Shown here one piece after another: positions 20,601-64,000 of a stretch of 64,000 nucleotides of DNA. Every line of letters starts with the position of its first letter. Positions within the stretch are counted from its first letter, which is position 1. A program made the translations under genes and the position numbers. The stretch comes from Azolla caroliniana (Eukaryota; Plantae; Polypodiophyta). The notes under the pieces are model-generated. The model was not told where the DNA came from and made no database searches. It was given only the letters and a program-made list of their open reading frames with translations. The stretch is from the NCBI GenBank assembly GCA_043228905.1, contig JBHGNT010000153.1, forward strand, positions 451 through 64,450, read 5' to 3'.

Positions 20601-20919
20601 CATAGGAGAAGAAAACCATCTCTCTAATCAGAGATTAATATCATTGCATCACGAAGAGCACTATGAACCTGTTAACCAGGAGGCTTCTGTAATAATTGAA
20701 AGTAATAATCTATATAATGATGATGCAATTTTTAGTATTTATATCATCTGCTAGATCTGTGAAAGCCATTGTATCCAAACCCATTCACAGAGAACAGAAA
20801 AACGAGTTATGCAACAGCAGCAATAGATTAGAGTAGCTGTTTAATGTCTGGATACGCACTGGTATTTGCAGAACAGACATAAGCGTACTTCTGTAGACGA
20901 AAGGGTGCCTTATGATCAG

Positions 20920-22719
20920 ATGATGCATTCCTTGCTTTTGTCTTCCAGATCTGTGAGTATCATCGCACCTTCCAAAAAGAAGAATAGGATTAGCCGTAGC
21001 GGATCATCATCGTCATCATCTTCATCAGCTGTGTATAATAATTGTAATTTTATTAGTAAACCCATTGATCATCATACCATTGTAGCCAAAGCCTGTGCTT
21101 TCGATGAGATGCGCACAAATTCTGATTCAGAAGCAAGTTCAGCAGGAGGAGCGGAAAGAACCAATCCAGAAGCTAGACTAGAAACGGACCAATTTCATCT
21201 TGTCTCTGGCAATAAATCTTCAAGTTCTGATGAGGTTAATGGCCTAGGAGGAGGCGGAGGTAATATTGCTGCATTAAACGTGAAAGATCTGTTAACAGAC
21301 TGTGTTATGTCAGTTTGTCAAGGCAGATGGCAAAGATCCTTGGAACTTCTTCGGGTTTTGAAAGAGAAATCTTCTGCAGATAATGGCGATGGAGGAGATC
21401 AGAGAATGGTCTCACAATTCACAGCCGTTCTCTCAGCAAGAATACAAGAGACGTCGACCTACAACGCTGAATATAGATCATGGATGCAGAGGCACGAATT
21501 AGAAGGCAATACAACAAGGTTAGATAACATAGCCATGGATGCTATGCAGAATATTGATGAAGAAGGAATTCAAAATGCAAGTCTTTCTTTCAACCAGGTA
21601 ACACCATATCTGAGATTCTTACACCTCACTGCCAACCAAGCCATTTTAGAAGCTGTGGAAAGGAAGCAGAGAATTCATGTAGTTGATATAGAGATAATGC
21701 AAGGTTTGCAATGGCCGCCATTCATGCAAGCTATGGCTGAGCGAGATGGGGGTCCTCCTATGCTCCTTAAAATTACAGGTGGTGGGAGAGAGAGACGAGT
21801 ATTAGAACAAGTTGGGGAAAGATTAAGAAAATTTGCCGAGTCAGTTGGTATTGAAGGTTTTGAATATGATGTTTTGGAATATGGAGTCAATAATAATATC
21901 AACTCTACATCAGCTCATCATGGTCCTCGACTACGGCCCTTGTTTCGAAGTGGAAATGAAGAAGAAGATGATGATGATGAAGAAGAAGAATGTGAAACTA
22001 TGGTTGTCAATTGCATTTTGCAAGTGGGAGATATGCCATGGAATTATAGCATGGGGGATCAAAGTGTAACCTCATTATTTCCTTCTGCTTCTTCAAATTT
22101 GCCTTCTTCCTGTTTGTCTTCTATATGTTCTTCATGGATGATGTTATCTGATGTGCTAATGAGGTATCGGCCTTTCCTTGTCACCATAGCCGAGCCAGAA
22201 GTAGATTTCTCAAGCTCCTCTTCATTTGAGATTCGTTTCGCTCAAGCTGTCCGGCATTACTCAGCAATATTTGAGTCTTTGGATGCAACATTGCCTCCCT
22301 CATGCCAACATCGCGCAATCGTAGAGAATGTGTGGCTCAGATCTCAAATTGCCAGTCTTCTGCTCCATGGCAACAACAATAGGAATGATAACAATGCTGG
22401 CCAATTATATGGCCAAGTCGGACCGAATTCTTTTAATAATGGCTGTAGAAATGGTCTTCTTTATCAAAGCTTTACTTGTAGCTCATCGTGGCGAGCTTCT
22501 TTGTGTTCACGTGGTTTTGAGGCGATTCCATTGAGTGAGTTTGCTATATCGCAGGCACGTCTTCTCCTTCGTCTTCGATATCCCTCAGAAGGTTACCGTC
22601 TCCGACAGTTTTACAATAATAATAATGCTTCAGGTGGGGATCAACATTGCCTTGCCTTGGGATGGCAAGATACTCCTCTCTTCACTGTCTCTGCTTGGAA
22701 ATCCCCGTCATCATCATAA
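20920..22719 (+). CDS. LAS: GRAS transcription factor, LATERAL SUPPRESSOR (LS/LAS/MOC1) subfamily; intronless CDS
   Basis: NQVTPYLRFLHLTANQAILEA, VHIID-type IHVVDIEIMQGLQWPPFMQAMAER, RFAQAVRHYSAIFESLDATLP, the LS-diagnostic FAISQARLLLRLRYPSEGY, and terminal LGWQDTPLFTVSAW. The first in-frame ATG is at 20920; the ORF track starts at a TTG. Confidence 0.92.
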   Translation: MMHSLLLSSRSVSIIAPSKKKNRISRSGSSSSSSSSAVYNNCNFISKPIDHHTIVAKACAFDEMRTNSDSEASSAGGAERTNPEARLETDQFHLVSGNKSSSSDEVNGLGGGGGNIAALNVKDLLTDCVMSVCQGRWQRSLELLRVLKEKSSADNGDGGDQRMVSQFTAVLSARIQETSTYNAEYRSWMQRHELEGNTTRLDNIAMDAMQNIDEEGIQNASLSFNQVTPYLRFLHLTANQAILEAVERKQRIHVVDIEIMQGLQWPPFMQAMAERDGGPPMLLKITGGGRERRVLEQVGERLRKFAESVGIEGFEYDVLEYGVNNNINSTSAHHGPRLRPLFRSGNEEEDDDDEEEECETMVVNCILQVGDMPWNYSMGDQSVTSLFPSASSNLPSSCLSSICSSWMMLSDVLMRYRPFLVTIAEPEVDFSSSSSFEIRFAQAVRHYSAIFESLDATLPPSCQHRAIVENVWLRSQIASLLLHGNNNRNDNNAGQLYGQVGPNSFNNGCRNGLLYQSFTCSSSWRASLCSRGFEAIPLSEFAISQARLLLRLRYPSEGYRLRQFYNNNNASGGDQHCLALGWQDTPLFTVSAWKSPSSS

Positions 22720-28209: not shown

Positions 28210-30640
28210 ACCATTTGAATTTTCAACACTAAGAACAAGAAACTCTTTCATTGGTTTTTGATACCCCTAAAAGCCTTTATACTTCATGTAAAGGTTATAT
28301 TAACAAATAACACGCAATGCTTAACATTGGAGGTTAGTTTTCGGTCATGCCTTTAGTGGTCCGACAATCAAATCCACCAATATGAATCAAAGTTGTATTC
28401 TTGATCCTTCAAAGGAACACATAAAAGTACTAATAATTTATTCATTTTCCTTTTACCTTCAAGTCAGTGTGGTAGTAGTTTAACTCCCACTCCACCCTGT
28501 ATTTGGGAAAGGACATTGGACCTTTATTTCAAACAGAAAAGACATCTTGAGACTCTATCTTTCATTGACACAGACGTGGTCATATACCAAGAGGTCTACT
28601 GTAGAGTTTGTACACAAATTACAATCCTCATAAGTGAGCTCTATTACTATCAAGATCTGGCCTTACAATTACAATGTCGTGGGTGCCCTTCAGTCAAACG
28701 AATTCAGTAAACACACATCAGATGTAATATTTGATTGGCCAAATGAACATTTTCTATGATTTCAAATGTGCTGTCTATAATTAAATATTTATATTTATAT
28801 TGCATTATATGTCATTTAAATATTGATGTGCCATCCATGAATTTCTAAGATGAGGAATGATTATGCATCTTGTTTTATTGCTTCCATGCTCAAATCCAAA
28901 CTTCCGATCCTTCTAGCCTTAGGATGAGACTGATTGCTATTACTAGGTTTATGTCAGCAACGATCATTCTAGGGACTGCCCTATGAATGCTCTCTTGTAA
29001 TCATAATTGATAATGGTAACCCCAACTCCTGTGTCTAGCATCAATTGTACAATGGCCCCATTGTTTATCATTTGGGAGAATTAAGCTCACATAATCAGTC
29101 TCAAATTGATTGGATTCCTACAGCATCCGATTATTCTAGAGTTTTCCTTTATGTTATTGTTACCTTGAGGTGTCCTGACAATAAGTTGTTCATAACCAAC
29201 TTGTAATTGTCAATTTAAATCATTCCTAAGTAGTTGTGTCAAGGTTTGGGGTTGAGACTTACTACTAGTTCAATATTTGACTTTGAGATCAAGCTATAGA
29301 TGTCTAGCCATTCAGCATGCCGCTACACATTTAGTTTTTGTTAGCAGAAGAGGGCGACCTTAACCTCTCTGTGTGTTGCAAACTACCCTTGCTATTAGGT
29401 TGTGGAGTTAAATTTTAATGCTTTGTCTTGTTGGGACTATTTCATATGATGGAAATCCCATTCCTCTAGCTAATCCCATCCTAGGTTTGCCTATCACTTG
29501 CGATAGCTTATTTTTGTTCCTTGTGGATCTATTATTGGACTTTTGGATATGTAGTCCAGAATTATTTATAAGGGTGATCTTTCTTGAAGGCCAATAGAGT
29601 ACTATTGGACTTTGGTCAAGACCTACTCAAAACTCCATTCTACCTTTGGCTTTATACACACTAAGGTAGTGAAACCTATTGTGTCTTGGTTTAAACACAA
29701 AAAATGCATAATGGGAAAAGCCAGCTCATTAATGAACCAATAGTTGAGCACAAAGAAGATTGAGAATGCAACCAAGACAAAAGCAAATGGCCTCTGATAA
29801 AAAAACAAATTGGTACATTGATTCAATGCCGTTATATACAAAACAAAAGTGCCTAACAAACATTCCATAGAGGTTCAACTTCATTAATAAGGTACACAAG
29901 TGCTTCCTTAACACATGGACAAACTATTTGTGCTTACTAAGATTGAGTTTGGTAAATCTTTTCCTTTACAATGTCTTCTGGAGTTAACCACCTTATCTTT
30001 GAGATAATAAAACCTTTGCCAGCATTCTAGAGTTAGCATATTGACAGGCCCAATGGTATCCTGGTGTATATTCAAAAATGTACTGTGAGGAGAATCTGGT
30101 ATATAGCCTACACATGAGGATGTTTTGGTGTAATTGTCTTCTACAGATTCATCCTGCTAATTTAGAAATTCACAATTTCACCTCTTTACTGAATTTGCTA
30201 AGCAACATGCACATAGTAGAGTCTTAAAGCCCTATATCCAACAGATTTCAAATATTCAATTTCTGTTTTTGACAAAGAGTAAGTGTTATATCCTCGATTA
30301 TGATAAGATGTACCACCACTTAGTGGAAACTATAGCTATAACTTGCATTGAAACATTTTTGCTAGATTCTACACTGGTCAATATGTATTCTGGGTTACAT
30401 AGAAGAATAAATCTTGCAACGCCATCATCTGCATATCCATGGATTTTTATTGCATCATCAGTAACATCAAGAAGAAGAAAATATATGCACATGGATTGGG
30501 ATGATGACATAAAACAATAGCTAAAGCTTGAATGATCATCGACAAAAGAAAATAATATATATATACATAGTCAAATGATGATGTAACACATCAGCTAAAT
30601 CTGGCACCATCATCATCAAGAAGAAGCCGGAAATATATGA

Positions 30641-31180
30641 TTAAGTTACAACGATTTCACCATACATGCCTGCGGCTGCATGAGGCTCACAAAAGAACTT
30701 ATAATTACCTTTCTCAGTAAGAACAACAACAAATTGCTCTCCCTGTTCATTCATATAATCCGAACGAGAGATCTTCTCTATCTCCACACTTTCCGGAACG
30801 CCATCTTTCTGAAAGATCACGTTATGTGGAAAACCTTTGTTATTGAAGAAGATTATTTTCTCGCCAGATGACACTGTCACGGAAGAAGGTACAAAATTTA
30901 GGCTTCCATCATCACTTCCCATTTTGATCGTTGTGGCTGCAAGAGAGGGGTACGCAGACAGAAGGATCGCCACAGCTGAAGATAGAGAAATCACTGCGGG
31001 AGCCAAATTTCGAAGAGGATGAAGAAAAGATACGATTTGAAGCCTTCTCCCGATATTTGATCCGCCATGGAAGGCCCGAGGAGAAGCAAGAGGTAGCTCT
31101 GTGCTTCGACTTGAGAGGGCGATCGATGTCGGGCAAACCCTAGAAAACACAGAGAAACTTGCCTGGTGTGAAGAAGCCAT
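30641..31180 (-). CDS. PETE: Plastocyanin precursor (atypical surface); intronless
   Basis: Bipartite transit peptide ending in a lumenal signal (...PSLA|ATTIKMG). Copper ligands lie in GFPHNVIF and FCEPHAAAGMYG (His, Cys, His, Met). The likely start is MASSHQ at 31180, with an alternative ATG at 31198. Confidence 0.92.
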   Translation of the reverse strand: MASSHQASFSVFSRVCPTSIALSSRSTELPLASPRAFHGGSNIGRRLQIVSFLHPLRNLAPAVISLSSAVAILLSAYPSLAATTIKMGSDDGSLNFVPSSVTVSSGEKIIFFNNKGFPHNVIFQKDGVPESVEIEKISRSDYMNEQGEQFVVVLTEKGNYKFFCEPHAAAGMYGEIVVT

Positions 31181-32339
31181 GGTTATATTAAATGTCATGG
31201 GGTAGAAATTCGATGAAATACCCCTCAGTTTTCCTTTATCTTTTTAAATGCCCCTTAAGTTTTCATCACAACCCAAAGGGCACACCTAATACACCGAAGA
31301 TTTTGTAATCATGAAAAACTCTCATCCACGAAAATTTGGAAGCACAAAAGAACTCAGAAATACCCACCCGCCCATGAACTCTGCTCCGTCTCTCCAAGTC
31401 CCCTTTATGTGAATCCACGGTTATATAAACGTCTCTATGAGGAAACACTCAATGAACATAGTTCATTTTTGGCCAATTCTAGACATCCAAAGGTGCATGA
31501 CACATGCACCTCACTTTTTTGGCTCCATTCTCACCATCGTTCTTCCTTATATTTTATTTAGTTAAAGCTACAACCAATTGTGAGGCATAAACCAACTAGT
31601 TGTCCCATGGGCATGTCAAGTGGCGATCGTCCAATAGTCATAAAAATAAGCTCATTATCTAATGTAATGTTCTTCTTATGTATCGCGTTGTGTTCATTCT
31701 TCTTGTCCCTCTACTCGGTAGTCTAGTATAATCAAATGCTCAAGGTCTGGAGGATAGTTAAGTAAGTTAGTTAATTTAAGCTATTAATTATGTGTGCATC
31801 TCAGTTTGAGTTGGTCGCTCAAGCAATAGGGACACTCTTGTCTTTTGTCCTCCCAACCCAACACTTTGGAGTTGGCCACCTTCAACCACCTAGCAAACCT
31901 ACTATCTAAGCATGTAGAACCTTAGAAGATAGGATGAACCAATTCTATGCTTGCCCTCTATAACCCGAGTTGCATTGGCTCACCTCTTGTAGCCAACCAC
32001 AACTCACTCAACCTTAGTTAAGCATACTTTGGTATGAACTTCCCATTGATTAAGGGGGTATGATTTTGGGCAAGCAATAATGTATCAATTCAAAAAGACG
32101 AATCATTTTACATTCATTGCTCTAAATCCATCTTGGGTGAAGAAACGGAAGGCCGAATACTCATAAATGTGGTTCCCTTTGCACGAGCTCTTGAATGACA
32201 TTGCTTTGAATCATGGTTCACAATTTATCTTACATTTTTAGAAGTCCCCCTTTCAACTCCTCGAGACCTAAACCAAACTACCATCATTTTTAGAAGCTCC
32301 TCTTTCAACTCCTCATACTGATGACCAAATAAAACAAAT

Positions 32340-33270
32340 AAATAGATCCTTGCGTAATATGTTTGGTACATGGTGAGTTTTCTACAAAATAACTTTATTC
32401 AAATTGTATTGCTTGTAAAGGTTTGCCTACAACAAACACCCTATGTTCTTGAATCAAAGTGACCTTATTATTGGCTAATTATGGTTTCCATCCACATATC
32501 AATGTGGTTATCTTTGCTAGTTCTAAAGGCCCTTCTATAGAAGAATGCAACATGGTACTAAAGGAGATTCATCACAACATGATTGTTAAGGTCATCCACG
32601 CAAATTTTAAGGCATAAGGATAAAGTTGATTGGTGATGACCACCTCGTTAAGTCAGCCTTAGTGTTCATAGACTTCACCTACAACAATACCCTACATTCT
32701 TTAATCACGATGACTTTGTTACTTGTTGATCATGGTTTCCATTAATGTTTCCACGTTGAACACATGTTGATAATTGAGGAGGTTTATGACAATTTGGCCA
32801 TCAAGCTCATCCACACCCAAGAAAGACATATGGATGAAGTTGATAATTGACAAACAACCTCACCAAATTTCAAAGCTAAGATAAATCCTAGTGATGACAA
32901 CCTTTGCTATAAATAAACTTTTGGCCTTTTGCCTCGCCCACCCCATTTTTGAATTGATGACGTTTCCATGAGATACTCCCAAAACCTTATCACATGTCTT
33001 TGATCCTTGATGGCCAACCTATGATGGAACTCGAGGTTGGGGATGAGCATGAAGATGAAGAAATCACATTGGTTGTAAATCAAGTATCTAGTATTGCAAA
33101 GCGTATGCCCATCATATAAAGATACTCGGGAGCTAGGTGACCACCTCGACAAATTGGAAGTGCACACTTTGGGAATTCTACCTTCTAAACCCGCTCCTCT
33201 TGGAAGTCCACGATAGAGGAGGAGATGATTTCGCAACTACCAATGAGTGAGGGAGTTGTAGAGTTATTTG
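32340..33270 (+). mobile_element. Degenerate Ty3/gypsy (chromovirus-like) integrase/chromodomain relic
   Basis: DFTYNNTLHSLITMTLLLVDHGFH (~32671; compare integrase EFAYNNs.Hs..gmSPF...yG.hP). IKYLVL...SYKDTRELGDHL (~33079; chromodomain-like). A purine-rich gagtgaggga followed by TGT near 33258 resembles a PPT/LTR start. Confidence 0.65.
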
Positions 33271-33886
33271 GAGATATAAATATTCCAAGTGGATTCTTCA
33301 ATGAATGCAAGACCAAGTAGTTGTTGGCATTGTGACCGATCAATCCAAAGGAACAATTTGATTAACCCAAACGCGGTGGATCAATGGTTGCAAAGGCAAG
33401 GCAAGGGCTTGTTAAAGAATGCAAATGGTTTTCGATAGTCTAGTAACCGAAGCATGAAGTAATGAATGGTTTTCGATAGTCTCGTAAGGACATGTTTATC
33501 TTTGTTAGGGTGGGCCCATTGGATATTAATTATGTTGGGAGGATGGCATCGTCGCCATTTGCGGTAGATCAGTCACTCAATGAAAACCGGACACACACAC
33601 ACACACACACCAGATGTAAAAGTCTGACGAAGAAGACAAGGAAACGAAGAGTGCGTGTGTGGGGGGGGGGGGGGACCATTTTGTTACTTGACACGTGGGG
33701 GAAAAATAAAGAAAAAGAGCACAACTTAAAGATCGAACAAACCCAGCACTTTAAAGAAAAAGAAGAAAGAAGCAGCAACAGCATCTTCTTTTCACACACG
33801 TGGACACACACGAGAACCACCAAAAATCTCCCGCCCTACAGAATACACACTCACTCAAAAGAACGGGGAGAACATTAGAAATTTAG

Positions 33887-33935
33887 AAGAAGAAGAAGAA
33901 GAAGAAGAAGAAGGAAGGAAGAAAGAAGGAAGAAG
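33887..33935. repeat. (GAA)n purine tract in the 5' leader of the extensin-like gene
   Basis: gaagaagaa... run immediately upstream of the ATG at 33947. Confidence 0.9.
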
Positions 33936-33946
33936 GCAATCCCGCC

Positions 33947-35469
33947 ATGCCTCCTCCTCTGCTCTCTTTCTCCTTCTTCACATTCCTCTTCCTCTTCCTC
34001 CTTCTTGTCTGCTCCCCCGCTTGCTGTGGCGGAGACGACGCCTCATCCTCCTCTCGGGATGAGAAGCATCATCATCATCATCATCATCATCATCTCGTCT
34101 CTGGGAGCGACTCTCCCTACGACCATGGCCTTCTCCACCTGCTGCCTCTGCCTCTGCCTCTGACTCTTCTTCACGAGAGTAGCAGCAGTAGGTATTGGCG
34201 TTTCTCGGCAGATGGAGGAGGAGATATACGTGCAGAGTATGATGATGATGAGGCTCCAGCTCCCTCACCATCTTCTTCTTCTTCTTCTTCTTCTTCTCCA
34301 CCGCCCGCTTCGCCTCCGCCTCCGCCTCCTTCTCCACCTCCTCCTTCTCTATCGCCGCCACCTCCACCACCATCTCCATCTCCACCGCCTCCATCTCCAC
34401 CTCCACCATCTCCACCGCCTCCTTCTCCCCCACCACCATCTCCATCTCCACCGCCTCCTTCTCCCCCACCACCATCTCCATCTCCACCGCCTCCTTCTCC
34501 CCCACCACCATCTGCATCTCCACCGCCTCCTTCTCCCCCACCGCCTTCTCCTCCACCTCCATCTCCTCCGCCGCCTTCTCCTCCACCTCCTTCTCCTCCG
34601 CCGCCATCTCCTCCACCTCCACCTCCATCTCCTCCTCCGCCTTCTCCTCCACCTCCACCTCCACCTCCATCTCCTCCTCCGCCTTCTCCTCCACCTCCAC
34701 CTCCATCTCCTCCTCCGCCTTCTCCCCCGCCTCCGCCTCCATCTCCTCCTCCGCCACCTTCTCCTCCTCCACCTCCACCCCCGTCTCCGCCTCCTCCCGC
34801 CCCATTCGCTCTGCTCGCCTCCCTCTCCGTCTCCGCTGGATCCCTCTCCCCCGACTTTAGCCCGTCCATTCTCAACTACGCCGTCGCCGTCGACGCCGAC
34901 GTCAGCTCCGTCACTGTCACCCCGCTTGTACCCGAGGATGTGGTAACAATTTAATAGAATTTGTAGTTCTGACTTGTCCTTCCAAAAACATCATTCCCCA
35001 GTTTTCTTTTAACCGTCCAATGTGGTTGGAACTTTGGGGGGGCGGGGAATTCCAGGTTGCTGCCGGTTACCTTCTGAGCGTGAATGGGACGGCCATCAAA
35101 AGCGGAGAGACCAGCTCTCAGTTGGCAGTTGGGCAGCCCGGAGAAACGTCCACAGTTCTCATCGACTTAGCGTCCAACGGTTATCAGCCCTCCACGTACA
35201 CCCTGTCCTTTAGCCGAGGTAACCCCCGTACTCACGCACTTTTTTTTTCTTTCTTGTATCCATCTCCCAATTCACCCCATTTCACACTACTAATGATGTT
35301 TCCTTGTCTTACAGGCACTAGTGGTGCCAACGGTGGCCTCATCGCACTCATCATCATCCTCGCTCTCTTGGTGGTGGGAGCTATTGTCATTATCTTGTAC
35401 AAGAAGGGTTGGATCCCTTGGTTTGCACCGAGATCCACTTCCGACTATCGGCCCTTATCTCAAGCCTAG
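33947..35469 (+). CDS. Chimeric extensin-like type I membrane protein: signal peptide, His tract, SP3-SP7 repeats, cadherin-like beta-sandwich, TM helix, short cytosolic tail. Exons 33947-34942, 35056-35218, 35315-35469
   Basis: Hydrophobic N-terminus, H9 tract and ~170 aa of Ser-Pro(n). The spliced domain reads LLASLSVSAGSLSPDFSPSILNYAVAVDADVSSVTVTPLVPEDV|VAAGYLLSVNGTAIKSGETSSQLAVGQPGETSTVLIDLASNGYQPSTYTLSFSR. TM is LIALIIILALLVVGAIVIILY followed by KK. GT-AG introns are in phase. Confidence 0.88.
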
Positions 35470-37394
35470 CCCTTCCTCCTCCTCCTCCTCCTCCTCCCGG
35501 TAGTTTTGTAACCATCTATATGCTCTCAATGTAAGTGTCAACGAACAACTTTCACAATCTTTTGGTAGGATTGGGATCAGAATAGCTCTCGGTATTTCTC
35601 ATTGTATATGATCTGATCCCCGTACTCTTTTTGCTATCCACCACACTCTGTCCCAGTCCCAGTGTTTGGGGATCCAAAGGATTTCATTTGAAATGTCTAC
35701 CCTTGCCCTTATGTACCTCTCTACAAGAAGGATGTACCTCTTTTTACATTAACGTCCTGACTCCTTACTAAGAACTACTGGATAGTAGATTCTTCAAATC
35801 TACGTGTTACTTCATTGATGTTACAAGGTGAAAAAGTTTCCACATCTTGAAGACCAATTACTATCAGTAAATGAACATTGGCTATTTCATCAGTCTTTGC
35901 AACATGAATTTGTATGGTTAGGGTTCAGGTCATAAAATTGTCTATGTGGTTGTAGCACAATCTCACATTGTCTTGTTTACCATGGTGAGTCACTCTATTG
36001 AAGAGTGGACTTGTTAAGGATGGAGGTTAATGAAATACAAGTGTTAGGGATTTAAGAAAATTCACGTAATTAGCTAAATGCGATAGTAACACTTGATAAA
36101 TAAAAAATTGGTAAAATTAAAATCTGCCTACGGTCTACCCAAGGAAAAGGTCCCCCCTGCTTGTTTCCATAAAGAATACAGTACACTAATTATACATAAA
36201 AAATTTGTGAGATTCTACAATTTCTTTTCCAAGAAAGTTTAAAATGTTGCTTCTCCAAAATATGCCCAGTGTCTTCGTAATTGAAGATATATTTTTAACT
36301 AATTGTAAATTTGTAATATAGAAACTTGTTTGACAGTGATGTGATCTCTTAACTAAATGGCTACAGGGCATGGCATATGCACTGTCTGTCGTTGTAGATC
36401 ATCCAACTCCCTTCAATCATCTCATGATCACCACTATTGATTATGACAAGTGAAATAAGACCTGGTTATGATCAAACCATTCCCAACTGATAATCAAAGC
36501 ATGTAACTTCAATCATCTGTTGATCGTGTGAGCTCTTCTATCAATGCCATGTTTGTATCTTAAAATAGTATAAGACATTGGTTTCTGTTGACTGTATACA
36601 GTGAGCAGTCACCTCCTCTCACTCTGAGCTTTTTTATCAATTTCAAGTGTACCTCTTTTGTTTTTTCTAAAACAAAATATCCTTCCATTAGTTTTTAAAA
36701 AACTCATAACTACAACATACAAAATATTTTTCCCAAGCCGGTCTTGTGTAAGAAAATGGCTGCGGAAACAAATCTATGTACTCCAAACCACGTCTACCTC
36801 TTTTAATATAATAAGACCTCAAAACTTAAGTTCTTGATAGAATTAAAACTTATGTTCTTAATGCATGCGTCCTTCAAAAGAAATATATATATAATGTGGA
36901 ACCAATTCATTAACTTAAATTTGCCATCACATATCAACGAGGGAATGAAATACAATTTAAATGTCATCTCATATCAATGACAACATGCAAGATTTCGATT
37001 ATTTGAAAAGGGCATTGGATCTAACACACATTCTTGGCTAGTTTATCAGAAATTTAATAAGAAAGGACAATAAGAAAACATGGTATCATTGCTAAAAACT
37101 GTCGCAATAGTTTTGAAGAGTTTTTGGACAGTACACTGGTTGATAGACAACAAACATTATAATATAACCTGAGCCTGCTTGAGACATCAACAAATTACAT
37201 ATTGCCTGGCAAACCACATTTCCAAACACATAAAAGAATTAAGGGTCCCAAAATACCTCTTGATTAGAAGCCATGATTGACGGTAAGGTGTTAAGAGTGC
37301 ATGTGAGGTGCATGCACTATGAAAAAAAAATTCTCAAGGATGTGATGGAATCCTTAAATTCTAGAAGGTTGAGGAAGCCAAGTGCCTTTCGCAA

Positions 37395-37630
37395 ATTAGC
37401 CCAGCATTTTGACTTATTCTCAGAGAAGCCCACCAATCCTTATCAACATTTTGATCCATCCTCAATGAAGCCCCGATACTATCAGCATTTTGATCCTTTT
37501 TCAATCAAGCTCAGCAATTACTATGAGCATCTTCCATCCTTTGTTAATGAAGCCCAACACAATTCCTATCCGCATTTCAATCCTTTCTTTAAATAAGCAT
37601 TACCAAGTCCCATCAGCATGTGATTCCTTC
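37395..37630. repeat. Diverged ~40-45-bp minisatellite just 3' of the kinase stop codon
   Basis: About 5-6 copies of tatca(g/a)cattttgatcc.t..tcaat(g/c)aagc.c. Confidence 0.8.
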
Positions 37631-40600
37631 ATCTCCGCCGTCTTGATATGAAATCCCCATTGCTCAACGAGCTAATGCCTTCTTCCTCATCCTCAGCTGA
37701 CATCTTCCCTTTTCCATTCTTTATGACTGTCCTTTGTGGATCTGCATCCCTATGACCTGCTGCCATGTATGGAGAACTTTCTTTAGGAATGCTTTGGTTT
37801 TCAGATGCCACTTGAAAATGGGATCCATTCCTTTGTCGCGATGTCTCCCGAACATTATTCTTCCGTTCCTTTAACATTATAATGCATGAACAAAGATCTT
37901 TTTAGGTAGTTTCAAACATGGTAGCTAAACACAAACATATAGACGGGCAAAACACCAAAATACACTTGCTGGGTATTTCTCACAGTAACTCGTAAGTTTC
38001 TGAATTTTCCAGAATACCCCTGTAGTATTCTGGAGAATTTAGAATCTTACAAGGTATTCTGGCACCCAAAACTCAGGGATATCTTGGTGCTTTTCCCTAA
38101 ATAGAATCTGCTTACATCAATATTATAATACCTCACGAAAAGGATTGTCATCAGCCTCAAGCATGTGAACTACTTGGCCCATTTTGGGCCGTTTCGGCGC
38201 ATCAGGATCAACACATCGTAGAGCTACAAGTAATGCTCTTTTGAGAACTCTTGGTGATGGCTTCTGCTCCATCTTTGGATCTACAACTTCTTCAGAGTGG
38301 TGGTTACCGACCATTGCTTTCAGCCAGTCAACCAAATTTACCTAGGAAGAGCACAAAATAAGGATATTAATTTAAAGAGGTTTGTATAGCTGTTACTGAT
38401 AAAGTACCTAGTTAAGAAATCTCACTTACCTCTCCAGCTGGCCTACTAAAATCAACAGGAACTCTTCCTGTCACCAACTCCATAAGGAGGACTCCGTAGC
38501 TATACACATCGCTTTTCTCAGTTAACATACCAGTAAGGGCATACTCTGGAGCAACATAGCTTCAAAGAAGAAATTTACAACAAACAAATAAATGAGATTT
38601 GTCGCGTGTTAAAAAAAAGAGAAGCTCACTTCAAAGCCATGTACACTCACCCAAAAGTTCCCATGACTCTTGTTGTAACATGGCTATTTCCTGTTCCTAA
38701 AAGCTTGGCAAGCCCAAAATCGGCAACTTTCGCATTCCATTGGCTGTCTATTAAAATATTGCTGGATTTCACATCACGATGTACAACTTTGGGTTCCAAG
38801 CCCTCATGCAAATAAGCCAACCTGTAGTTTATCGTTCTCTCTCTCTCTCTCTAAAAACATTGAATTGATTTTAAAGATTCAATATACAAAAAAGTTGAAT
38901 GATAATCATAACATATATCAGCATATTTGGAATAACAAATTTTGAAAAGTTTAGTATGGAAGGCTTTTGTAAACCTTTTTCTAAATGGTCATGTTTTTTA
39001 TATTAATAGCTACACAATTTGTAAAGGAAAATGGATTGTTTCACTGTGATATATTATTCATTATTCTTTCTTTACCCTCTATCTTATTTATAATTCATAA
39101 TTTAGTGAATAAGAGGCAGTGCATCACATTCTGCTACGCACTTTGTTTTATTTATAGACAGAATATTTGCAATGTTTTGAGTACAAAAGCTAAAAATTAG
39201 GACATAACCAAGGAATGGCATTCTAGTACAGATATAATAGATCAACATATATGCATGAAACATCAAAATCTTGCAATACAGAAAATGTCAACATAAAACA
39301 CAGACTCACACAAGAAAATACGAGAAATGGAAGTTTGAGTGATATGAGAGTTTTAATAAATACCCTTTTGCAGTACCAAGAATAATCTTCATTCGCTTCT
39401 CCCAAGACAATGGTGGCAGATCTCCTAATGGACCATGTAGCCACTGGTCCAAATTTCCATTGTCAACATATTCATAAACCAGCATCCTGAACAACACAAA
39501 GGAAAATATTCTCAATCAGAAAGAGCAATACTATAGATGAAGCTACGTAAATAATCAAGTTAACCCCACGATCGTAATTTTCTAAAATGCAACAAAGTAA
39601 ATACATCCAATAATCACCATTAAAGGAAAAGGACGCTTTTGAAAAAGACAAATAACCAATTAAAGACCACTTCATTCATCCTATTCAAGTTACAACAGTT
39701 CAAGTATCTCTGAAGGTTCTGAATCAATCAGCATTGACAAATTGTACAAGTATTTGGTGTTATCTTCAAATTCAGAAATAAAAAAAGAAATAATCACCTC
39801 TGAGATCCCTCCATGCAGTAACCAATAAGCCGGACAAGATTTTTATGCCTCACACGTCCGATTGCCTCCACTTCTATTTTAAATTCTCTTTCTGCTTGTC
39901 CTCTGTGATTGTGAATGACATCAGAATTCAGTACAAAACATTTCAACCATCTTGGGCACATCTTTTAGAATTCCAAGTTCTGATGTACATTTCTGAATCT
40001 GATGCAGATTGCACCAGTGAAATGCAATAGATGATTTGGAGATATGGTTCAGAAAAGCATACCTATTGTTTAGAAGGTTTTTCACGGCAATGCGAGTTCC
40101 ATCAGGCAAGTGGCCTAAGTAAACAATGCCATAACCACCCTCACCCAGCACATTTGTATCAGAGAAAGAATCTGTTGCCGCCTCAAGCTCACGTAATGTG
40201 TACCAATGACCCCATCCAAGGTGAGAAACCTCGGGCACAGATATACCTGTAGGTGCTGATGAAGGTGAATCTGTAGATCGAGAATCATTACTAGCACTGG
40301 ACCCTCTTTCGTGTGAATGATGAGGACCTCTCCTCTCTCCTTCCACTACACCTTTCTCCACAGGAGGTAAACGCACACGATTTGCCATCTCCATCCTGGT
40401 TTCTTCTTGTTGCCTTGCTGCTTGCCTAGTTCTCTCAAGAGTTCTGTTTTCTTGCTGTTTCTCTACTCTGTCCAAACTACTATCTCGTTGTAGAGCGTCT
40501 ACAATGACCTCATTCTCTGTTTCTGAGTTGTTTTTCCCCAGTGCACTGTTGTTGGATCTATTCAAAACACGATAAGGAGGAGGAGTAGATTGCCTAGCAC

Positions 40601-40814
40601 GATCATTCATCAGTCCATTTACATTAGAAGTCTTGGATACCATGAAGCTACCATGTTTCTTATTTTGCGAGGATTTCTTCCTCGATGCTAGACATATGGA
40701 GAGACAAAACAATATGAGAACAATAAGAGCTCCCACTGCGATTCCTATGACAACCCATAGCTTCAAGCCAAAGACAATTGTACTCTTGGAAAGTTCATTA
40801 CTGAGAAAATCCAT
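37629..40814 (-). CDS. Receptor-like Ser/Thr kinase, RLCK-V family (At1g01540-like). Exons 40814-40063, 39902-39798, 39486-39364, 38821-38651, 38559-38430, 38341-38132, 37868-37629
   Basis: N-terminal [18 protein letters not shown] plus TM, family-diagnostic [73 protein letters not shown] and [22 protein letters not shown]. Splice phases are consistent. Confidence 0.95.
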
Positions 40815-41129
40815 TGTCTTCTTGCAAGTTCGAAAAGCTTTTGAGCTCTAAAGCCACATTTGTAAAGGCAAGAAATCCACTTTGCTATAAGTACATGATA
40901 GATCTGCAGGAAGTTTGCACCCCTGATGCTGTCCTGATACTTTACCCTAAAATTCGATTCACTCGCTGATGAAAAATCCAAAGGAGAGATGATCGATTTT
41001 ATGATGATTTTTTTCTGCGATAATGGTGAAGGAATTTTCGAATGAATTTTAGGGTTTTCCACAAAAAGCAGTGGTGACTTTGACAGAGATCTGATCACCT
41101 TGCCTAGATCTGTAGGAATGTTATGCCTT

Positions 41130-41575
41130 TCTGATACTACAGAGAAATCCTAACAGAAAACGTTTTTAGAGTGAGAGCCAGACATCTAAAGAAAAAATGT
41201 CAATCTGTGGTGGAAATTTTAGAGTTTTCTGCAACCAACAATGGCGAAGGGAAAAACTTTACTAGAGACGTCCAGGATAACTGAAAGCGAAAAGTGAACT
41301 TTTCATGGTTAACGAAACTTTTTAGAAAAACGTTTTTCATCTGCTGAGTATATATTCCGAGAGGAGGTACCGACCTCTTAGGAAAATAAGGTTTCCTGGA
41401 AGCAGCAATGACGAATCGGTTGCCTTTCTATATAGATCTACGGAAATGATTTGTTTCTATACTGCACTGAAATCCTAACAGAAAACGACTTTCACCTGAA
41501 GAATGTATCGTCCACGAAGAAACTTGATCGAACTCTTAGAAATTTTAGGTCTTCTGTAACAATGGCGTTCGAGAG
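41130..41575. repeat. Diverged ~325-bp tandem duplication upstream of the kinase CDS (probable 5'-UTR intron)
   Basis: gaaatcctaacagaaaacg at ~41144 and ~41469; aattttag....ctg.aac(c)aacaatggcg-like segments at ~41215 and ~41541. Confidence 0.7.
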
Positions 41576-44500
41576 GTCGGCAGTCATTTTTTGCATTTCT
41601 AGAGCTACATTTCTTGCATATCTGACAGAAAAAGTTTCTATTTGGTGAACATATACTATGGCGACAAGAGATTCAATCAACCTAGGAATAACTTTTAGGG
41701 TTTTGTTTTCTGAAAATCCATCCCAGAGACAGCGATGACTATCACGGTCCAAAGGAGAGAAGAAAACGAAGAAGCATAGATCAGTACCTGAGATGAATTG
41801 AATCAAGAACGTGCTGATCAATCGTGCTTGTCTGAGAGAGAGAGAGAGAGAGAAAGAGAGACAGATGTGAAGGATTTGGCGTTGGCGATGGCGATGAAGA
41901 AGACGACGAAGATATGACAAGAAATGCAAAAAAGGCCGAAAAGCAAAAAAGCAGAAAGCAATAAGAAAAGTAAAAAAAATAAAAAATAAAAAAACAGGCA
42001 AGGATGAGCTGGAGACAAGAAGGAGCCTATAGCGATAATATGTCCACGTGGCAGGGTCCACATATGTACATACACAATAGGTTTTTAAAATTAATTTAGA
42101 GCTGGCCAAATTTGGGAGACTAAAAATGAATTGGGAAGGGGGGCTAGTTTATCTTTAGCGGTCGCGATTAAGGAAGGAAGGCCAAACCAACAACATCCAC
42201 ACGATTTATATAATAAATACGATTTGCTTTGTCCAAACCCCCGCCCAAAACCAATCCCAAATGGCCCAAACACATCCCCTTCCCGGCCTTATCTCTACCC
42301 ATCACGCATTATTTGTCTCTTCTATCCCACCCATGTTGTTCTTTCACCTCCTTTCCTTCTCTCCAACTCCTTAAGTGAGAGCAATCTCGTAATGCCATCT
42401 TAACACACCCCCCCCCAATGCTAATATGCCAATGACTTAAGTAATAGGGGGGGGAGGGGGGGGGTCCCTTCCTTCCATGCTCTTTCACAGCACCATAGCC
42501 TCACCCAAATTATCAATCGTTGTGATACAATACCAGAGTGTGTTTGTTTTTCCTATTTAGTTACTTACCACTATGGTGGAACCATCATACACACAGTAAA
42601 GTTGGGTGGGCTACAATCAGCCCTCGATTGCTTGAGTGAGCCTCCATCATTTTTATATCATAAATCATTTATTTGGCCCATCATCATTTGAGGCAAAATG
42701 GCATGACACCTTTACATGTGGGATACTATGGTAGGAAAATATTTGAAGGCCTCGAAGAGTTTGCTACTTTTTTCTCTCATGTGTGTGTGGTTGCTCTCAC
42801 GTCAATGAAAGTTTGTTGGAATGTTGATTGATTCTCACCATGTTTGTAAGGTGTCAAACCAGCCAAGTGAGAATATATTGTCGATTAAAAATGTTATGTA
42901 TTTGATATTGAAGGTGATATATCATCACACTTTCATATATTTTAGAATAAAAACCTTGAAATTTTGAAATTTTGTTAGTAAATCAATTCGATGACATTAG
43001 ATAGAGTTTTATACACACAAATACTTTTTATTGAAAACAAGCACAAATCTCAAAAGACTTCACCAGAAAAGTACCGTGTTCATGTCATTTGTCCCATTGT
43101 CTCAAGGAAGTCACCAGCATGTGTCCCATGCACACTCTCGTAGTGCATCAAGGACTTTTTTGCATCATACAGGATCAAGATCTATAGTGGTTGATATAAT
43201 ATAAAAGTTTTGAAAAAACAAATCTAGTTTTTGGAACATATGTATGGCATAGTATTAAGTAGTTAGGTTTGTACATTGGGACCGATTAAAATATTTTGAA
43301 TTTTTGCTCACCAATTTACATATAAAATGATTTGTTAGCAAGTCCACAAACCATGGGTTGTTATGCTCATAACACAAAGTTGTATCAAGAGGGCCAATTG
43401 AGATTCGATCTTCAACACATGCTAAACCATGTCATGGTACCACCAATGAAATATTAATTTTAATTTGATGATCATATGGATGACAAAAATATTGTCAATT
43501 CTTATGACACATGGACGTACAAATTCTAAGGTACTTCCAACATGATGTTGTTGTACACTGCATAGGAGACACATCAAGTCCTTGGGAAACCATGCATGGT
43601 TACAACTTACATCATGAACGGATTCGACGGAATACAAGCTCTAACGATATTGAATTTTTTTATCCTTTAAAGGTTCGAGCATGAATAGATACACAATCCA
43701 CATTTATGAGCCCCTTAAGATGGTGGTGAACTAGTTATCGGTTCTCGAGGACAATGCTTGTTCATAGTTGGTGCAATTTAACTATTTGATTGGTTATTAA
43801 TATGTTTGAAGTAAAATTCTATCTTGGAATAAGTGCAACATCAAAATAAATGACACCCTAGATAAACTATATTGCTTCTCAATAACATTTTCTTCCCAAT
43901 CAACTTGTGTGGGTGTTTAATGAGGATAGTATTTTGATGCATAGTATGAACAATATGTACCATACGTGCATTGGCATTCGGGAATGTTTCGATCATCCGA
44001 GTATTTGATAAAAGCCCTCGAAGTATGGTAAATACCATAATTTTGTATTCATTATTTATTATAAGGTAACTTTTTAAAAGGTAAGAAATTTAAGGTAAAA
44101 AGTATAAAAAAACCATAAGAATGTTTTGTTAACATACGCATTCGTAGGGAAAAGAATGCTTGCCTATGCATTCGAGTATATTACAACTATGAAATTGGAT
44201 GTATGAAACTTATGTAGAAACTTGCCTATTTCATGTGTCACAATGAATATGCATATAATTGTATTTTTATGTGGAAAGAGATTAACCTATACAATTCAGC
44301 TATGGGGCACCCAAGATAAGAAATCACTGAATGGGACTTTGTGCGAGTTCATCCCCAACAAGCCTTATGATCATGAAGGTCTAATCACAACGATATTTAA
44401 GTGAACGTTGAACTACCTAAACTATGAACTTGGAGCCATATAAATAACGACGTCTTTTTCTTTTTTTGATAATGAAGGCAAACTATTATTTTTCTAGGAT

Positions 44501-52800: not shown

Positions 52801-54660
52801 TGTAATCCTCAAGGTGCCGATTCATCAGTGTTTCCTAAACATTTATTTTTTCATATGCATATGAACCTTATGTAAGGGTCCTTTTTTAAGTGTATTGATG
52901 ATAGATTGTGATATTGAAGGCACATGTATGTAGAAGGACTCAAGGAGATTGGCAAGCAAGTCTTAGAAGCTCAAAAGGAGTGAATGCACTGACAATGAGA
53001 CCAAAGGGTCTGATTGCCCTTGACATTTCTTTGAATCGCCTCTCAGACTTCACTGTACAGACCATCTGCACTGTCTTGAGGATTGGCACCCCACTTGAAT
53101 GTAACAAAATCCTCCTTAATCCTTTAGTTTTTATATATATTTTTAAAGGATATTGCATTACGATTACATGCTATATATAATTTACAAAAGAGGCAATCTT
53201 CCGTGATGTTGAATTTGGATTTAATGTACAAAAAACAGCTCTGAATCTGAGGGGTAATCAGCTCACTAGAATTAGTGGGAAGCTGTTACTCGATGTAATG
53301 GAGGAATGGACAACTTTGAGACTGATTGACCTTCGAGATAATACCGATAATAAACTTATGGGTGTCCTTGAGGATCGACAACACTTAACTACCTTTACAA
53401 AGAGACACCCTCCCTTTTGGACGGCATCGTTTTCGAGGCTGGGAAGAATAACACGTCTGAAAACCTCTTCAAAAAAGATGAGAACACTAAATGGTTCTCT
53501 CACTGGCAATGCAGCTATCCGTCCTCAGTCTTGCCCAAACATCATTCAATCCCATCCCCAACCTAAGAGTAGGTGTGTAAAACCTCCATTGGTACTTCAA
53601 CAATCTACTTCAAGACATATTGAGTATATGAAAGACAACAAGCATATGCAAAGGCCATCAACATCTCCAACAAAGGATAACACATCTTTATCATCATGTC
53701 CTTCTGAATTTACAGCTTGGAGGGATAATGATTCAAGCACAAAAGAAAACAGGATGCCATTTGACACATCTTGGGTCAACCCTAATGTGGTTGAGGAGTT
53801 TGCGCGAAAGCAAGCCAGCTATTTAAATGTGAAGAGAGCCCAAGATGAAGAAGATGATGTATTGAAACCAATGGACTTGAGAAGAAACTTTGATTCTGGA
53901 AACTATCAAGCTGAAACGTTTAAGACAAGACAAGGATCAGAACCGGTATTGAGGAAGGTGAATTGTGATGAACAACAGTTAAGAAGAAATAAATATGATG
54001 AAAATTGTAACCTTGATCAGGAGTTTGAGCAAATGGATGCAAAAAACCATGGGCGTCAGACAGCATCACTTCTGAAGGAAATGACGCGGGCTATCCTTCA
54101 TCTCCAAAGTATGGCATACAAAATCATATCCAGCATGTTGCATGCACATTTCCAATGCTTTGAGCAGCTGTCTTCACTCTATATCATTATGTTTTGAACA
54201 TCTGTACTATTCATTAGGGTTTTGCTGTAAACATTCCACTGAAATTAAACATAATTTGCACGTGCCCACACATTTTCTGTATTGTCCTAAAAAAATGCCC
54301 ACTCCTTTTGCTCTCTCTATGCATTTAATGTGGTGCTTAAGATGTTTCATTTGGATGTTTTTGTTTGAGATACGAAATAGTGGGGCATTGTTTTGGCAAA
54401 TACATCGAATTGTGTGATATTTTTATGTGTGTTGAATAGCATTTTTAGACGTGCTTCTTATCTGTAAGCATTTCTTAAGAGATGAAGGAACCAAATGCAT
54501 GCATTTTTTTGGATTGAATAAGGTGACAATACCATAGGTTTGTAAAACAGAGACACTGAAGTGTTTTCCTTTTTCAGAACGTCTTGATGAGCTTATTGGC
54601 CCCGCTCAGGCAGATTCGTTAGCAGAACAAGCGGCATCCCAATTGGAAGTGCTTGGTTAA
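49833..54660 (+). CDS. CEP78: CEP78-like centriolar LRR protein. Exons approx. 49833-49931 (5' end uncertain), 50356-50423, 51422-51439, 51619-51739, 51845-51905, 52002-52102, 52512-52582, 52715-52813, 52920-53100, 53239-54108, 54578-54660
   Basis: The spliced LRR run CLQELELGFALWQRDLKIIAESICQSPTLKRLSFANSELGDHGLQILGKSLQECAQLEILNLSACGLTDAVSALLGVILKAHVCRRTQGDWQASLR...SLNLRGNQLTRISGKLLLDVMEEWTTLRLIDLRDN parallels animal CEP78 as I recall it ([23 protein letters not shown]...LSLANCPIGDGGL...ILKYQTMRRHEETWAESLR...LVVLDIRKN). Phases are consistent from 50356 onward. Confidence 0.8.
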
Positions 54661-63550: not shown

Positions 63551-63805
63551 TTACGATGGATCTTTCTTCTGAAGTGAGAAGATCTCCCCTGTAGTATCTG
63601 AAGGAAAAGAAAATGTACTGTCCCCAGGAATCCTGCCAGAATCTTGAACATGTCCATCCTTGGATGAACCTCTTTTATCATTAATGTCTTCCTTTGATGG
63701 AATGTGTGTTCTGTTACCATGAACAATGTTCTTGTATATTGTAAGGGCTTGTGCTACCATACTTGACGGATCACCCGCATTGGTTGGAAGCAGCATGGTT
63801 GTTCC
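63551..63805 (-). CDS. Terminal exon of a stomatin-like (SPFH/band 7; mitochondrial SLP1/SLP2-type) protein; the gene continues beyond the window
   Basis: After the acceptor tgcag|, the exon reads GTTMLLPTNAGDPSSMVAQALTIYKNIV, which matches the C-terminal band-7 segment of plant SLPs (GTTMLLP...NPASMIAQALTMYK). Confidence 0.8.
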   Translation of the reverse strand, partial: GTTMLLPTNAGDPSSMVAQALTIYKNIVHGNRTHIPSKEDINDKRGSSKDGHVQDSGRIPGDSTFSFPSDTTGEIFSLQKKDPS

Positions 63806-64000
63806 CTGCATTGATTGGATGTAAAAACTGCAAATTTGAGGTTCGAAAATAATTCATGATAGAAAATTGCCAAATATCATGACGAATATGCAGCATTTTC
63901 AAACAATAGATCTAATTGATAATCATGAATGTTACTAAGTATGATGCATGTTACCAGCATAAACAGAAATTTCATTTGCTTAACAAAGTTGAATGTCTGC

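What the first reader, a model, noticed from the sequence alone, without database searches (positions are those of the whole stretch)
33947..35469. Extensin rod fused to a bacterial-type cadherin-like beta-sandwich in a membrane-anchored protein with an endocytic tail
Seen in sequence: the architecture is SP - His9 - ~170 aa Ser-Pro(3-7) - ~95 aa beta-rich domain - TM - ~25 aa tail ending DYRPLSQA, with no kinase. Established knowledge: the pattern L.SLSVSAG.LSP.F.P....Y.V.V...VSSVTVTP.....SVNG....SG..S..L..G.....I.......TYTL...R is characteristic of the cadherin-like beta-sandwich (Pfam PF12733) typical of bacterial cell-surface proteins. It is not part of the chimeric extensin classes I know (LRX, PERK, formin-extensins). 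YRPL fits the YxxPhi adaptor-sorting motif. Inference: an uncharacterised cell wall-plasma membrane linker or adhesion/sensing protein, with the domain possibly of bacterial origin and later intronised (an intron splits it).
Basis: partly seen in the sequence, partly recalled or inferred. Interest (0 to 1): 0.85.

Follow-up and report, generated by a model that had tools for sequence, protein, structure and literature searches.

The report
Membrane-anchored extensin with cadherin-like domain
This is a real, spliced plant gene for a membrane protein that carries a long proline-rich rod on a small bacterial-type beta-sandwich domain; relatives of the same build occur in a fern and a spikemoss, and it likely tethers the cell membrane to the cell wall, although we found no study that tests any member.

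Summary
Three exons (33947-35469) give a 437-aa protein: signal-like segment, His9, a 168-aa Ser-Pro rod, one PF12733 cadherin-like beta-sandwich, one TM helix and a 22-aa tail. There are two introns, not one; both are skipped in public contigs. The build is not unique: Ceratopteris KAH7283935.1 and Selaginella 403585 share it, and all four tails seen keep [DE]-Y-x-x-[LV]. The Selaginella protein was tabled as a 'chimeric EXT' in 2016, and the 2010 paper that founded PF12733 lists small single-domain proteins from Selaginella, Physcomitrella and Ostreococcus in its supplement. A recent bacterial transfer is therefore unlikely; an ancient one is untested, since my trees lacked algal, moss and animal rows and named no donor. 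It is no true cadherin (no calcium motifs). Best reading (0.5): a kinase-less wall-membrane tether, with a likely arabinosylated, non-cross-linking rod on a membrane-near beta-sandwich pedestal, sorted through its tyrosine motif. This scan already reported the family twice from peat-moss DNA. Ten paper searches found no study of it. New member of a catalogued but unstudied family; interest 0.4.

The parts
33947..34942 (+). Exon 1 (332 codons): signal-like segment, His9, low-complexity region, Ser-Pro rod, first part of the domain
   Evidence: ATG and open frame; donor GT at 34943; joint seen in contigs
33947..34030 (+). Predicted signal peptide (aa 1 to about 28)
   Evidence: Hydropathy peak 2.47; no signal-peptide program run; Selaginella relative scored 'signal peptide Yes' by Liu 2016
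34067..34093 (+). His9, a (CAT)9 microsatellite; absent from the Ceratopteris relative
34031..34294 (+). N-terminal region aa 29-116: His run, Leu/Pro stretch, acidic patch, APAPSP, Ser run; no confident fold
   Evidence: single-sequence model pTM 0.21, weak evidence of disorder
34295..34798 (+). Extensin-like rod aa 117-284: the protein's 28 Ser-Pro(3-8) motifs, no Tyr, Lys or His; about 52 nm if a polyproline II helix (0.31 nm per residue, recalled)
34805..34942 (+). PF12733 cadherin-like beta-sandwich, first part (profile 1-34)
   Evidence: 25.8 bits, above the cut-off of 24.2
34943..35055 (+). Intron 1, 113 nt, phase 0, GT..AG, inside the domain
   Evidence: skipped in 4 of 4 runs, and in X5 and X13
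35056..35218 (+). Exon 2: PF12733 second part (profile 39-88)
   Evidence: 22 bits
35219..35314 (+). Intron 2, 96 nt, phase 1, GT..AG, in frame and stop-free
   Evidence: skipped in 4 of 4 runs and in X13; read through in gene call P0001
35315..35469 (+). Exon 3: linker, TM helix, tail, stop
35332..35400 (+). Predicted single TM helix (aa 393-415)
   Evidence: hydropathy 3.58; helix 108-136 in the model of the Ceratopteris relative
35443..35457 (+). D-Y-R-P-L, a YxxPhi-type motif in the 22-aa tail
   Evidence: matching motif in P0012, P0009 and Selaginella 403585

Best explanation
The gene encodes a 437-aa single-pass membrane protein with a Ser-Pro rod outside a PF12733 beta-sandwich and a short tyrosine-motif tail, and it likely works as a kinase-less tether between plasma membrane and cell wall. 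Shown: gene, splicing, domain identity, the same build in a fern and a spikemoss, the conserved tail motif. Inferred: the signal peptide sends the N-terminus outside; the Ser-Pro runs are hydroxylated and arabinosylated and stiffen into a rod that threads into the wall without covalent cross-links (no Tyr, no Lys); the beta-sandwich next to the membrane is a rigid pedestal and possible docking site for a neighbouring membrane protein; the [DE]YxxPhi tail binds a clathrin adaptor and sets where and how long the tether stays at the surface. The family is old in land plants; the domain entered green plants long ago, by inheritance or by an ancient transfer.
For: Architecture and splicing. Same order of parts in Ceratopteris P0012 and Selaginella 403585. 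The plant domains form one clade, 98/96. Rod length varies (168 aa here, 50 aa in P0012) while domain, TM and tail motif stay, as expected of a stalk. Precedent: the extensin-like ectodomain of Arabidopsis FH1 binds the wall and limits its mobility, and contiguous Ser-Hyp is arabinosylated into rods (review PMC8012813). The one solved relative found by sequence (8yk1, E 7e-6; top Foldseek row) is a stabilising structural domain. YxxPhi motifs drive AP2 binding and endocytosis of IRT1 (PMC12515080).
Against: No member has been localised, knocked out or shown to be glycosylated in anything I read. The rod lacks the Tyr and Lys by which classical extensins cross-link and bind pectin, so wall binding may be weak. 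A YxxPhi match alone arises in 12-20% of shuffled tails, and in BOR1 such motifs do not mediate AP2 binding. The fold was predicted for the Ceratopteris relative, not for the window protein. A 22-aa tail offers no evident link to the cytoskeleton. No contig spans the rod.
Confidence: 0.5

Rival explanations
1. Mechanism: an uptake or sensing receptor. The beta-sandwich binds a wall glycan or an apoplastic protein, and the tyrosine tail internalises the complex or hands a signal to a partner kinase; the rod is only a glycosylated stalk or shield.
For: PF12733 is fused to carbohydrate-active domains in bacteria and was proposed to bind carbohydrate (PMC2824669). Domain, TM and tail motif are the conserved parts.
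Against: No Trp in the domain of the window or of P0012, whereas carbohydrate-binding modules mostly use Trp platforms (recalled). The solved relative is structural. The domain lies under the rod, next to the membrane.
Confidence: 0.25
2. Mechanism: the tail motif sorts the protein at the trans-Golgi network or to the cell plate or tip, and the protein scaffolds new wall there instead of acting as a lasting surface tether.
For: YxxPhi motifs are read by several adaptor complexes and also set polarity; extensins are secreted during cell-plate formation.
Against: No localisation data; nothing in the sequence separates this from the best reading.
Confidence: 0.17
3. Mechanism: a true cadherin-like homophilic adhesion molecule.
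For: Seven-stranded sandwich; animal cadherin repeats appear among weak Foldseek rows, E 0.025 to 0.08.
Against: No DxNDN or LDRE calcium motifs (motifs recalled); one domain only, buried under a rod; hundreds of unrelated Ig-like folds score as well (289 chains at Z 5 or more).
Confidence: 0.04
4. Origin: a recent transfer from a bacterium into this plant lineage, then intronised.
For: 27 of 33 hits and 22 of 22 are multi-domain proteins of bacterial type; the window domain is hardly closer to plant kin (43%) than to them (35-38% by BLAST; 45% to P0003 in the tree alignment); GC3 of the domain is 0.72 against 0.33-0.39 in three neighbours.
Against: Same build in a lycophyte and a fern; single-domain proteins of like size in Physcomitrella and Ostreococcus; plant rows are one long-branched clade whose sister changes between runs.
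Confidence: 0.04
5. Origin: one ancient bacterial transfer into green plants (before or at the origin of land plants), as against plain inheritance from early eukaryotes.
For: The 2010 paper proposes lateral transfer for eukaryotic members because they are patchy; the nearest relatives I retrieved are all of bacterial type.
Against: The same supplement lists members in animals, a choanoflagellate, two apicomplexans and a chlorophyte, which also fits old eukaryotic inheritance with losses. My trees hold no such rows and 96 columns.
Confidence: 0.5

Closest known systems
Selaginella moellendorffii 403585 (PACid:15407999), 'CHIMERIC EXT' in Liu et al. 2016 (PMC4769139, S1 Fig, S6 Table); probably the same as Smoe1000021644 in PMC2824669
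   Same: Signal peptide, Pro-rich region, one cadherin-like domain, TM, short tail with E-Y-S-L-L-P; domain 40 of 101 positions identical by my hand count (not a tool result)
   Different: 292 aa, much shorter Pro region; listed without a domain name or any study in the parts I read
Ceratopteris richardii KAH7283935.1 / UniRef100_A0A8T2QK90
   Same: Same order of parts; PF12733 51 bits; domain 43% identical; tail D-Y-K-E-V-P
   Different: 265 aa, 50-aa rod, no His run, Cys in the tail; hypothetical protein
Bacterial PF12733 surface proteins (S-layer, type IX-secreted, glycosidases such as AgaBb, PDB 8yk1)
   Same: Same domain, 35-38% identity; same predicted fold
   Different: Mostly tandem arrays of 3-28 copies with SLH, CHU_C or enzyme domains; 0 of the 51 other stored proteins has a Ser-Pro rod or a C-terminal TM by the crude screen
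Class I formin-extensins (AtFH1), PERKs and LRXs
   Same: Extensin-like region coupled to the membrane or to a membrane-near folded domain; AtFH1's ectodomain anchors to the wall
   Different: No FH2, kinase or LRR domain; the only cytosolic part is 22 aa
Animal cadherins
   Same: Seven-stranded beta-sandwich outside a single TM helix
   Different: No calcium motifs, no tandem repeats, no catenin-binding tail; likeness no better than to other Ig-like folds

Membership tests
PF12733 cadherin-like beta-sandwich | Score above Pfam's gathering cut-off (24.2 bits) | tested here: met
   Exon-1 piece 25.8 bits; exon-2 piece 22 bits, in order along the profile; P0012 51 bits
PF12733 cadherin-like beta-sandwich | Seven-stranded beta-sandwich fold | tested here: met
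   Model of the Ceratopteris relative: pLDDT 89, seven strands; 10 of 10 Atlas structure rows align to PF12733 parts; window protein itself not folded
Other chimeric extensins (Liu 2016) | Two or more SPPP and a Pro/Ser-rich HRGP region | tested here: met
   28 Ser-Pro(3+) motifs; 165 of 168 rod residues Pro or Ser; criteria
Other chimeric extensins (Liu 2016) | Signal peptide | tested here: inconclusive
   Hydrophobic N-terminus by hydropathy only
Other chimeric extensins (Liu 2016) | An added domain that is not LRR, kinase or FH2 | tested here: met
   Pfam finds only PF12733 at E under 0.002 in the exon translations
Other chimeric extensins (Liu 2016) | Proline hydroxylation and arabinosylation | not testable with these tools
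   Needs mass spectrometry
Classical extensin | [quoted passage not shown] | tested here: not met
   No YxY in the protein, no Tyr or Lys in the rod
LRX / PERK / formin-extensin | LRR, kinase or FH2 domain | tested here: not met
   None in Pfam scans; stop 22 aa after the TM
Animal cadherins | Calcium-binding linker motifs and tandem repeats (recalled) | tested here: not met
   No DxNDN or LDRE; one domain; no second copy in the window
Animal cadherins | Closest structural match is a cadherin repeat | tested here: inconclusive
   Cadherin rows at E 0.025-0.08 among many Ig-like folds
YxxPhi adaptor cargo | YxxPhi in a cytosolic tail, conserved | tested here: met
   4 of 4 family tails; tail side inferred from topology
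YxxPhi adaptor cargo | Binding to an adaptor mu subunit, Tyr-dependent traffic | not testable with these tools
   Needs pull-down and mutant imaging
Bacteria-to-plant transferred genes | Supported nesting among bacteria with other eukaryote rows in the tree | tested here: inconclusive
   Plant clade 98/96, sister 83/46 and unstable; no algal, moss or animal rows

The most novel reading that the evidence does not exclude
An overlooked eighth class of extensin: a kinase-less, single-pass wall-membrane adhesion receptor built on a bacterial surface-layer domain that green plants took up once, kept from mosses through lycophytes to ferns with its adaptor-binding tyrosine motif intact for some 400 million years, and lost in flowering plants. 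It would be a minimal plant analogue of animal matrix receptors, testable by a single knock-out in Physcomitrium or Ceratopteris.
Probability: 0.22. Interest if true: 0.72.

Novelty: new member of a known kind. Interest (0 to 1): 0.4.

Why it matters
How plant cells fasten membrane to wall is only partly known, and most named candidates are kinases, formins or secreted LRXs of flowering plants. This family is a stripped-down candidate (rod, pedestal, TM, sorting motif) conserved between a lycophyte and a fern, with a likely member in a model moss, so it can be tested directly. It also extends a mostly bacterial surface domain into vascular plants. The interest is held down because members already stand in two published tables and in UniRef, the scan has met the family twice before, and neither function nor bacterial origin is shown.

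Tried and rejected
No whole genome is held, so copy number and synteny are untested; no second copy lies in the window. Word-index search with exon 2 alone found only the locus itself, 1 of 42 candidates. Profile searches found 3 of 6163 candidates at 26-279 aa and 22 of 7996 scored at 280-2000 aa, none named as plant. These and all missed the Selaginella protein, so their blanks say little about mosses, gymnosperms or flowering plants. Motif searches of Liu 2016's sequence files hit only the Selaginella protein as a family member, but used 12 short motifs, cover only proteins with two SPPP, S2 Fig was cut when stored, and 14 of 23 files were not searched. No close relative in GTDB genomes (600 pattern matches, 0 confirmed) or plasmids; both see close relatives only. 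L001 is a 20-residue chance match inside an unrelated bacterial ORF: dropped. Three hits (P0021, P0022, P0029) lack PF12733 and were treated as chance. Protein 4 was out of frame; redone. The first Atlas search scored under 0.8, a lead only. The homodimer job on the Ceratopteris domain gave no answer, 0.22 against a mark of 0.32. The chlorophyte 'cadherin-like' receptor-kinase ectodomain in PMC12757656 is a 34-aa match to an animal cadherin description, with no PF12733 entry in its supplements: not used. No NCBIfam family, no Rfam match in 30000-42000. The plant lineage of the window was not established.

Full report
Observation. The window sequence holds an ATG at 33947 and an open frame to 34954. 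Exons 33947-34942, 35056-35218 and 35315-35469, all with GT..AG borders, give a 437-aa protein: a hydrophobic N-terminus, His9 at aa 41-49, a rod at aa 117-284 (132 Pro, 33 Ser of 168; Ser-Pro4 19 times, up to Ser-Pro8), a beta-rich domain at aa 287-386, a TM segment at about aa 393-415, and a 22-aa tail with YRPL at 431-434. Neighbouring GRAS and plastocyanin genes mark the DNA as land-plant; the lineage was not established, and no whole genome is held.

Splicing. Of 21 runs listed I laid 8. In one search, contigs of 4 of 4 runs (4 studies; three guessed to be RNA, one of unknown kind) skip 113 and 96 bases at the predicted borders; one 977-nt contig of X1 crosses both joints with one mismatch. 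In one search, X13, a recorded RNA library about 91% alike, skips both; X5 skips intron 1 and shows a differently placed joint at intron 2; X4 and X16 show no joint, and an X16 contig runs from mid-intron 2 into exon 3. No DNA run was laid as control, and no contig crosses the rod, whose repeats the tool skips. A second, roughly 90% alike copy in X2, X3 and X15 differs at 19 listed codons, 10 of them silently (only the differences that one search listed).

The domain. The two exon pieces match PF12733 positions 1-34 and 39-88 in order; the exon-1 piece alone passes the cut-off (25.8 against 24.2). A profile of 224 non-plant domains from 41 stored proteins gives the spliced domain 68.6 bits, its reverse 2.4, and 500 shuffles at most 7.2 (the domains were chosen by likeness to the plant ones). 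I folded the Ceratopteris relative, not the window protein, with a 21-row alignment: pLDDT 89, seven strands, then a TM helix. Foldseek's best row is 8yk1, Bifidobacterium AgaBb (E 1.2e-3; none reaches 1e-3), which the sequence profile also finds (E 7e-6). Its authors describe that region as a stabilising beta-sandwich (bioRxiv 2024.03.03.583176, passages). The wide structural search gives only generic Ig-like matches, best Z 8.1. In the Atlas, 10 of 10 structure rows align to PF12733 parts. Cadherin calcium motifs (recalled) and Trp are absent.

Relatives. A full HMMER scan gave 33 hits: the locus itself (P0001, an intron-2 read-through gene call), two proteins with domain, TM and tail (P0009, unnamed and partial; P0012), 27 multi-domain PF12733 proteins, 10 of them with SLH or CHU_C domains, and 3 without PF12733. 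P0012 is Ceratopteris richardii KAH7283935.1, with signal peptide, a 50-aa Ser-Pro rod, PF12733, TM and tail. Two profile searches added no further plant protein. A motif search of the sequence files of Liu et al. 2016 (PMC4769139; I read part 1 of the text, passages, section 12, part 41 of S1 Fig and one row of S6 Table) found Selaginella moellendorffii 403585: 292 aa, Pro-rich, then the domain (40 of 101 positions identical by my hand count), TM and tail, classed 'CHIMERIC EXT', signal peptide yes, similar proteins none. My protein searches had missed it, so their silence on mosses and seed plants is weak. The paper that founded PF12733 (PMC2824669; main-text passages; the whole cadherin-like list) names single-domain proteins in Selaginella (293 aa), Physcomitrella (261 aa) and Ostreococcus (263 aa), two larger Ostreococcus proteins, animals, Monosiga, Toxoplasma and Plasmodium, and no seed plant, although Arabidopsis occurs elsewhere in that file. 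The list does not show whether the moss and algal proteins have a rod or TM.

The tail. All four tails seen carry an acidic residue, Tyr, two residues and Leu or Val: DYRPL, DYKEV, DYVPL and EYSLL, mostly followed by Pro. In shuffled tails a plain YxxPhi arises 12-20% of the time, the acidic form 0.6-2.8%; that form was chosen after seeing the data and the proteins are kin, so this shows conservation, not function. In Arabidopsis such motifs bind AP2M and drive endocytosis of IRT1, but do not mediate AP2 binding in BOR1 (PMC12515080, passages).

Origin. In a 99-row tree of 96 columns the three plant domains form one clade, 98/96 (bootstrap not settled). Its sister is weak (83/46) and changes between runs, so no donor can be named. 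Against a clean plant-bacteria divide, the window domain is 43% like P0012 but 35-38% like bacterial-type ones by BLAST, and in the tree alignment its highest identity, 45%, is to P0003. The trees lack algal, moss, lycophyte and animal rows, so they cannot tell ancient transfer from inheritance. The lycophyte and fern members rule out a recent transfer; the 2010 paper already proposed lateral transfer for eukaryotic members.

How it likely works. The rod lies farthest out and the domain next to the membrane. Contiguous Ser-Pro is arabinosylated and extended in extensins, and the extensin-like ectodomain of AtFH1 grips the wall (PMC8012813, passages and part 1 of section 5). With no Tyr or Lys in the rod the grip would be non-covalent. 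Rod length varies threefold or more between members while domain, TM and tyrosine motif persist. I therefore read it as a kinase-less wall-membrane tether on a beta-sandwich pedestal, positioned and turned over by adaptor sorting (0.5); a ligand receptor (0.25), a cell-plate or tip scaffold (0.17) and true cadherin adhesion (0.04) are the rivals. Every step beyond sequence, splicing and predicted fold is inferred.

Novelty. Ten paper searches (the first eight bear on the family; listings only, 25 of 292 and 25 of 837 shown) turned up no study of the family; the library lacks most subscription journals. Members stand in two supplementary tables and in UniRef. The scan reported the family twice from peat moss; one note adds conifer relatives and a 'Chimeric (Cadherin-like)' label in Supplementary Table 7 of PMC5266747. 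I saw only main-text passages of that paper, with no 'cadherin' in them, and could confirm neither point; that unseen table bears on how well known the family is. Verdict: a new member of a catalogued, unstudied family of chimeric extensins; interest 0.4.

Noticed in passing
window 35219-35314: Intron 2 is 96 nt, in frame and stop-free, so retention would add 32 residues between domain and TM; gene call P0001 reads through it and an X16 contig covers half of it.
   Followed up: partly
window 34805-35442: A second copy about 90% alike in runs X2, X3 and X15 shares many of its differences with runs X5 and X13 of another organism label: a homeolog, a paralog or mixed material.
   Followed up: partly
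window 34805-35217: GC3 of the domain codons is 0.72, against 0.33, 0.39 and 0.35 for the GRAS, plastocyanin and kinase-like ORFs; unexplained.
   Followed up: no
window 34067-34264: His run, acidic patch and APAP before the rod have a loose counterpart in Selaginella 403585 but not in Ceratopteris (by eye).
   Followed up: no
window 35401-35420: A basic-Gly-x-x-Pro stretch follows the TM in all four members; Ceratopteris and Selaginella have Cys near it (possible S-acylation, inferred), the window protein has none.
   Followed up: no
window 20845-22719 (+): Single long ORF for a GRAS transcription factor, PF03514 248 bits.
   Followed up: partly
window 30641-31243 (-): Plastocyanin with transit peptide, closest to ordinary green-plant structures; 2bz7 and 1kdi (fern plastocyanin, recalled) score lowest of 31.
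   Followed up: partly
window 39921-40847 (-): First exon of a receptor-like kinase by eye (TM, then GEGGYG); no Pfam hit for this exon alone.
   Followed up: no
window 842-1210 (-); 53181-54197 (+); 63551-63853 (-): A bHLH-like ORF and an LRR-like ORF by eye (no Pfam hit at 0.001), and a band-7 C-terminal match, PF16200 37.5 bits.
   Followed up: no
L001 2-1921: Bacterial ORF resembling a restriction-modification methyltransferase (motifs recalled); its match to P0009 is chance.
   Followed up: partly
P0002: A 3334-aa unnamed protein with 28 PF12733 repeats.
   Followed up: no
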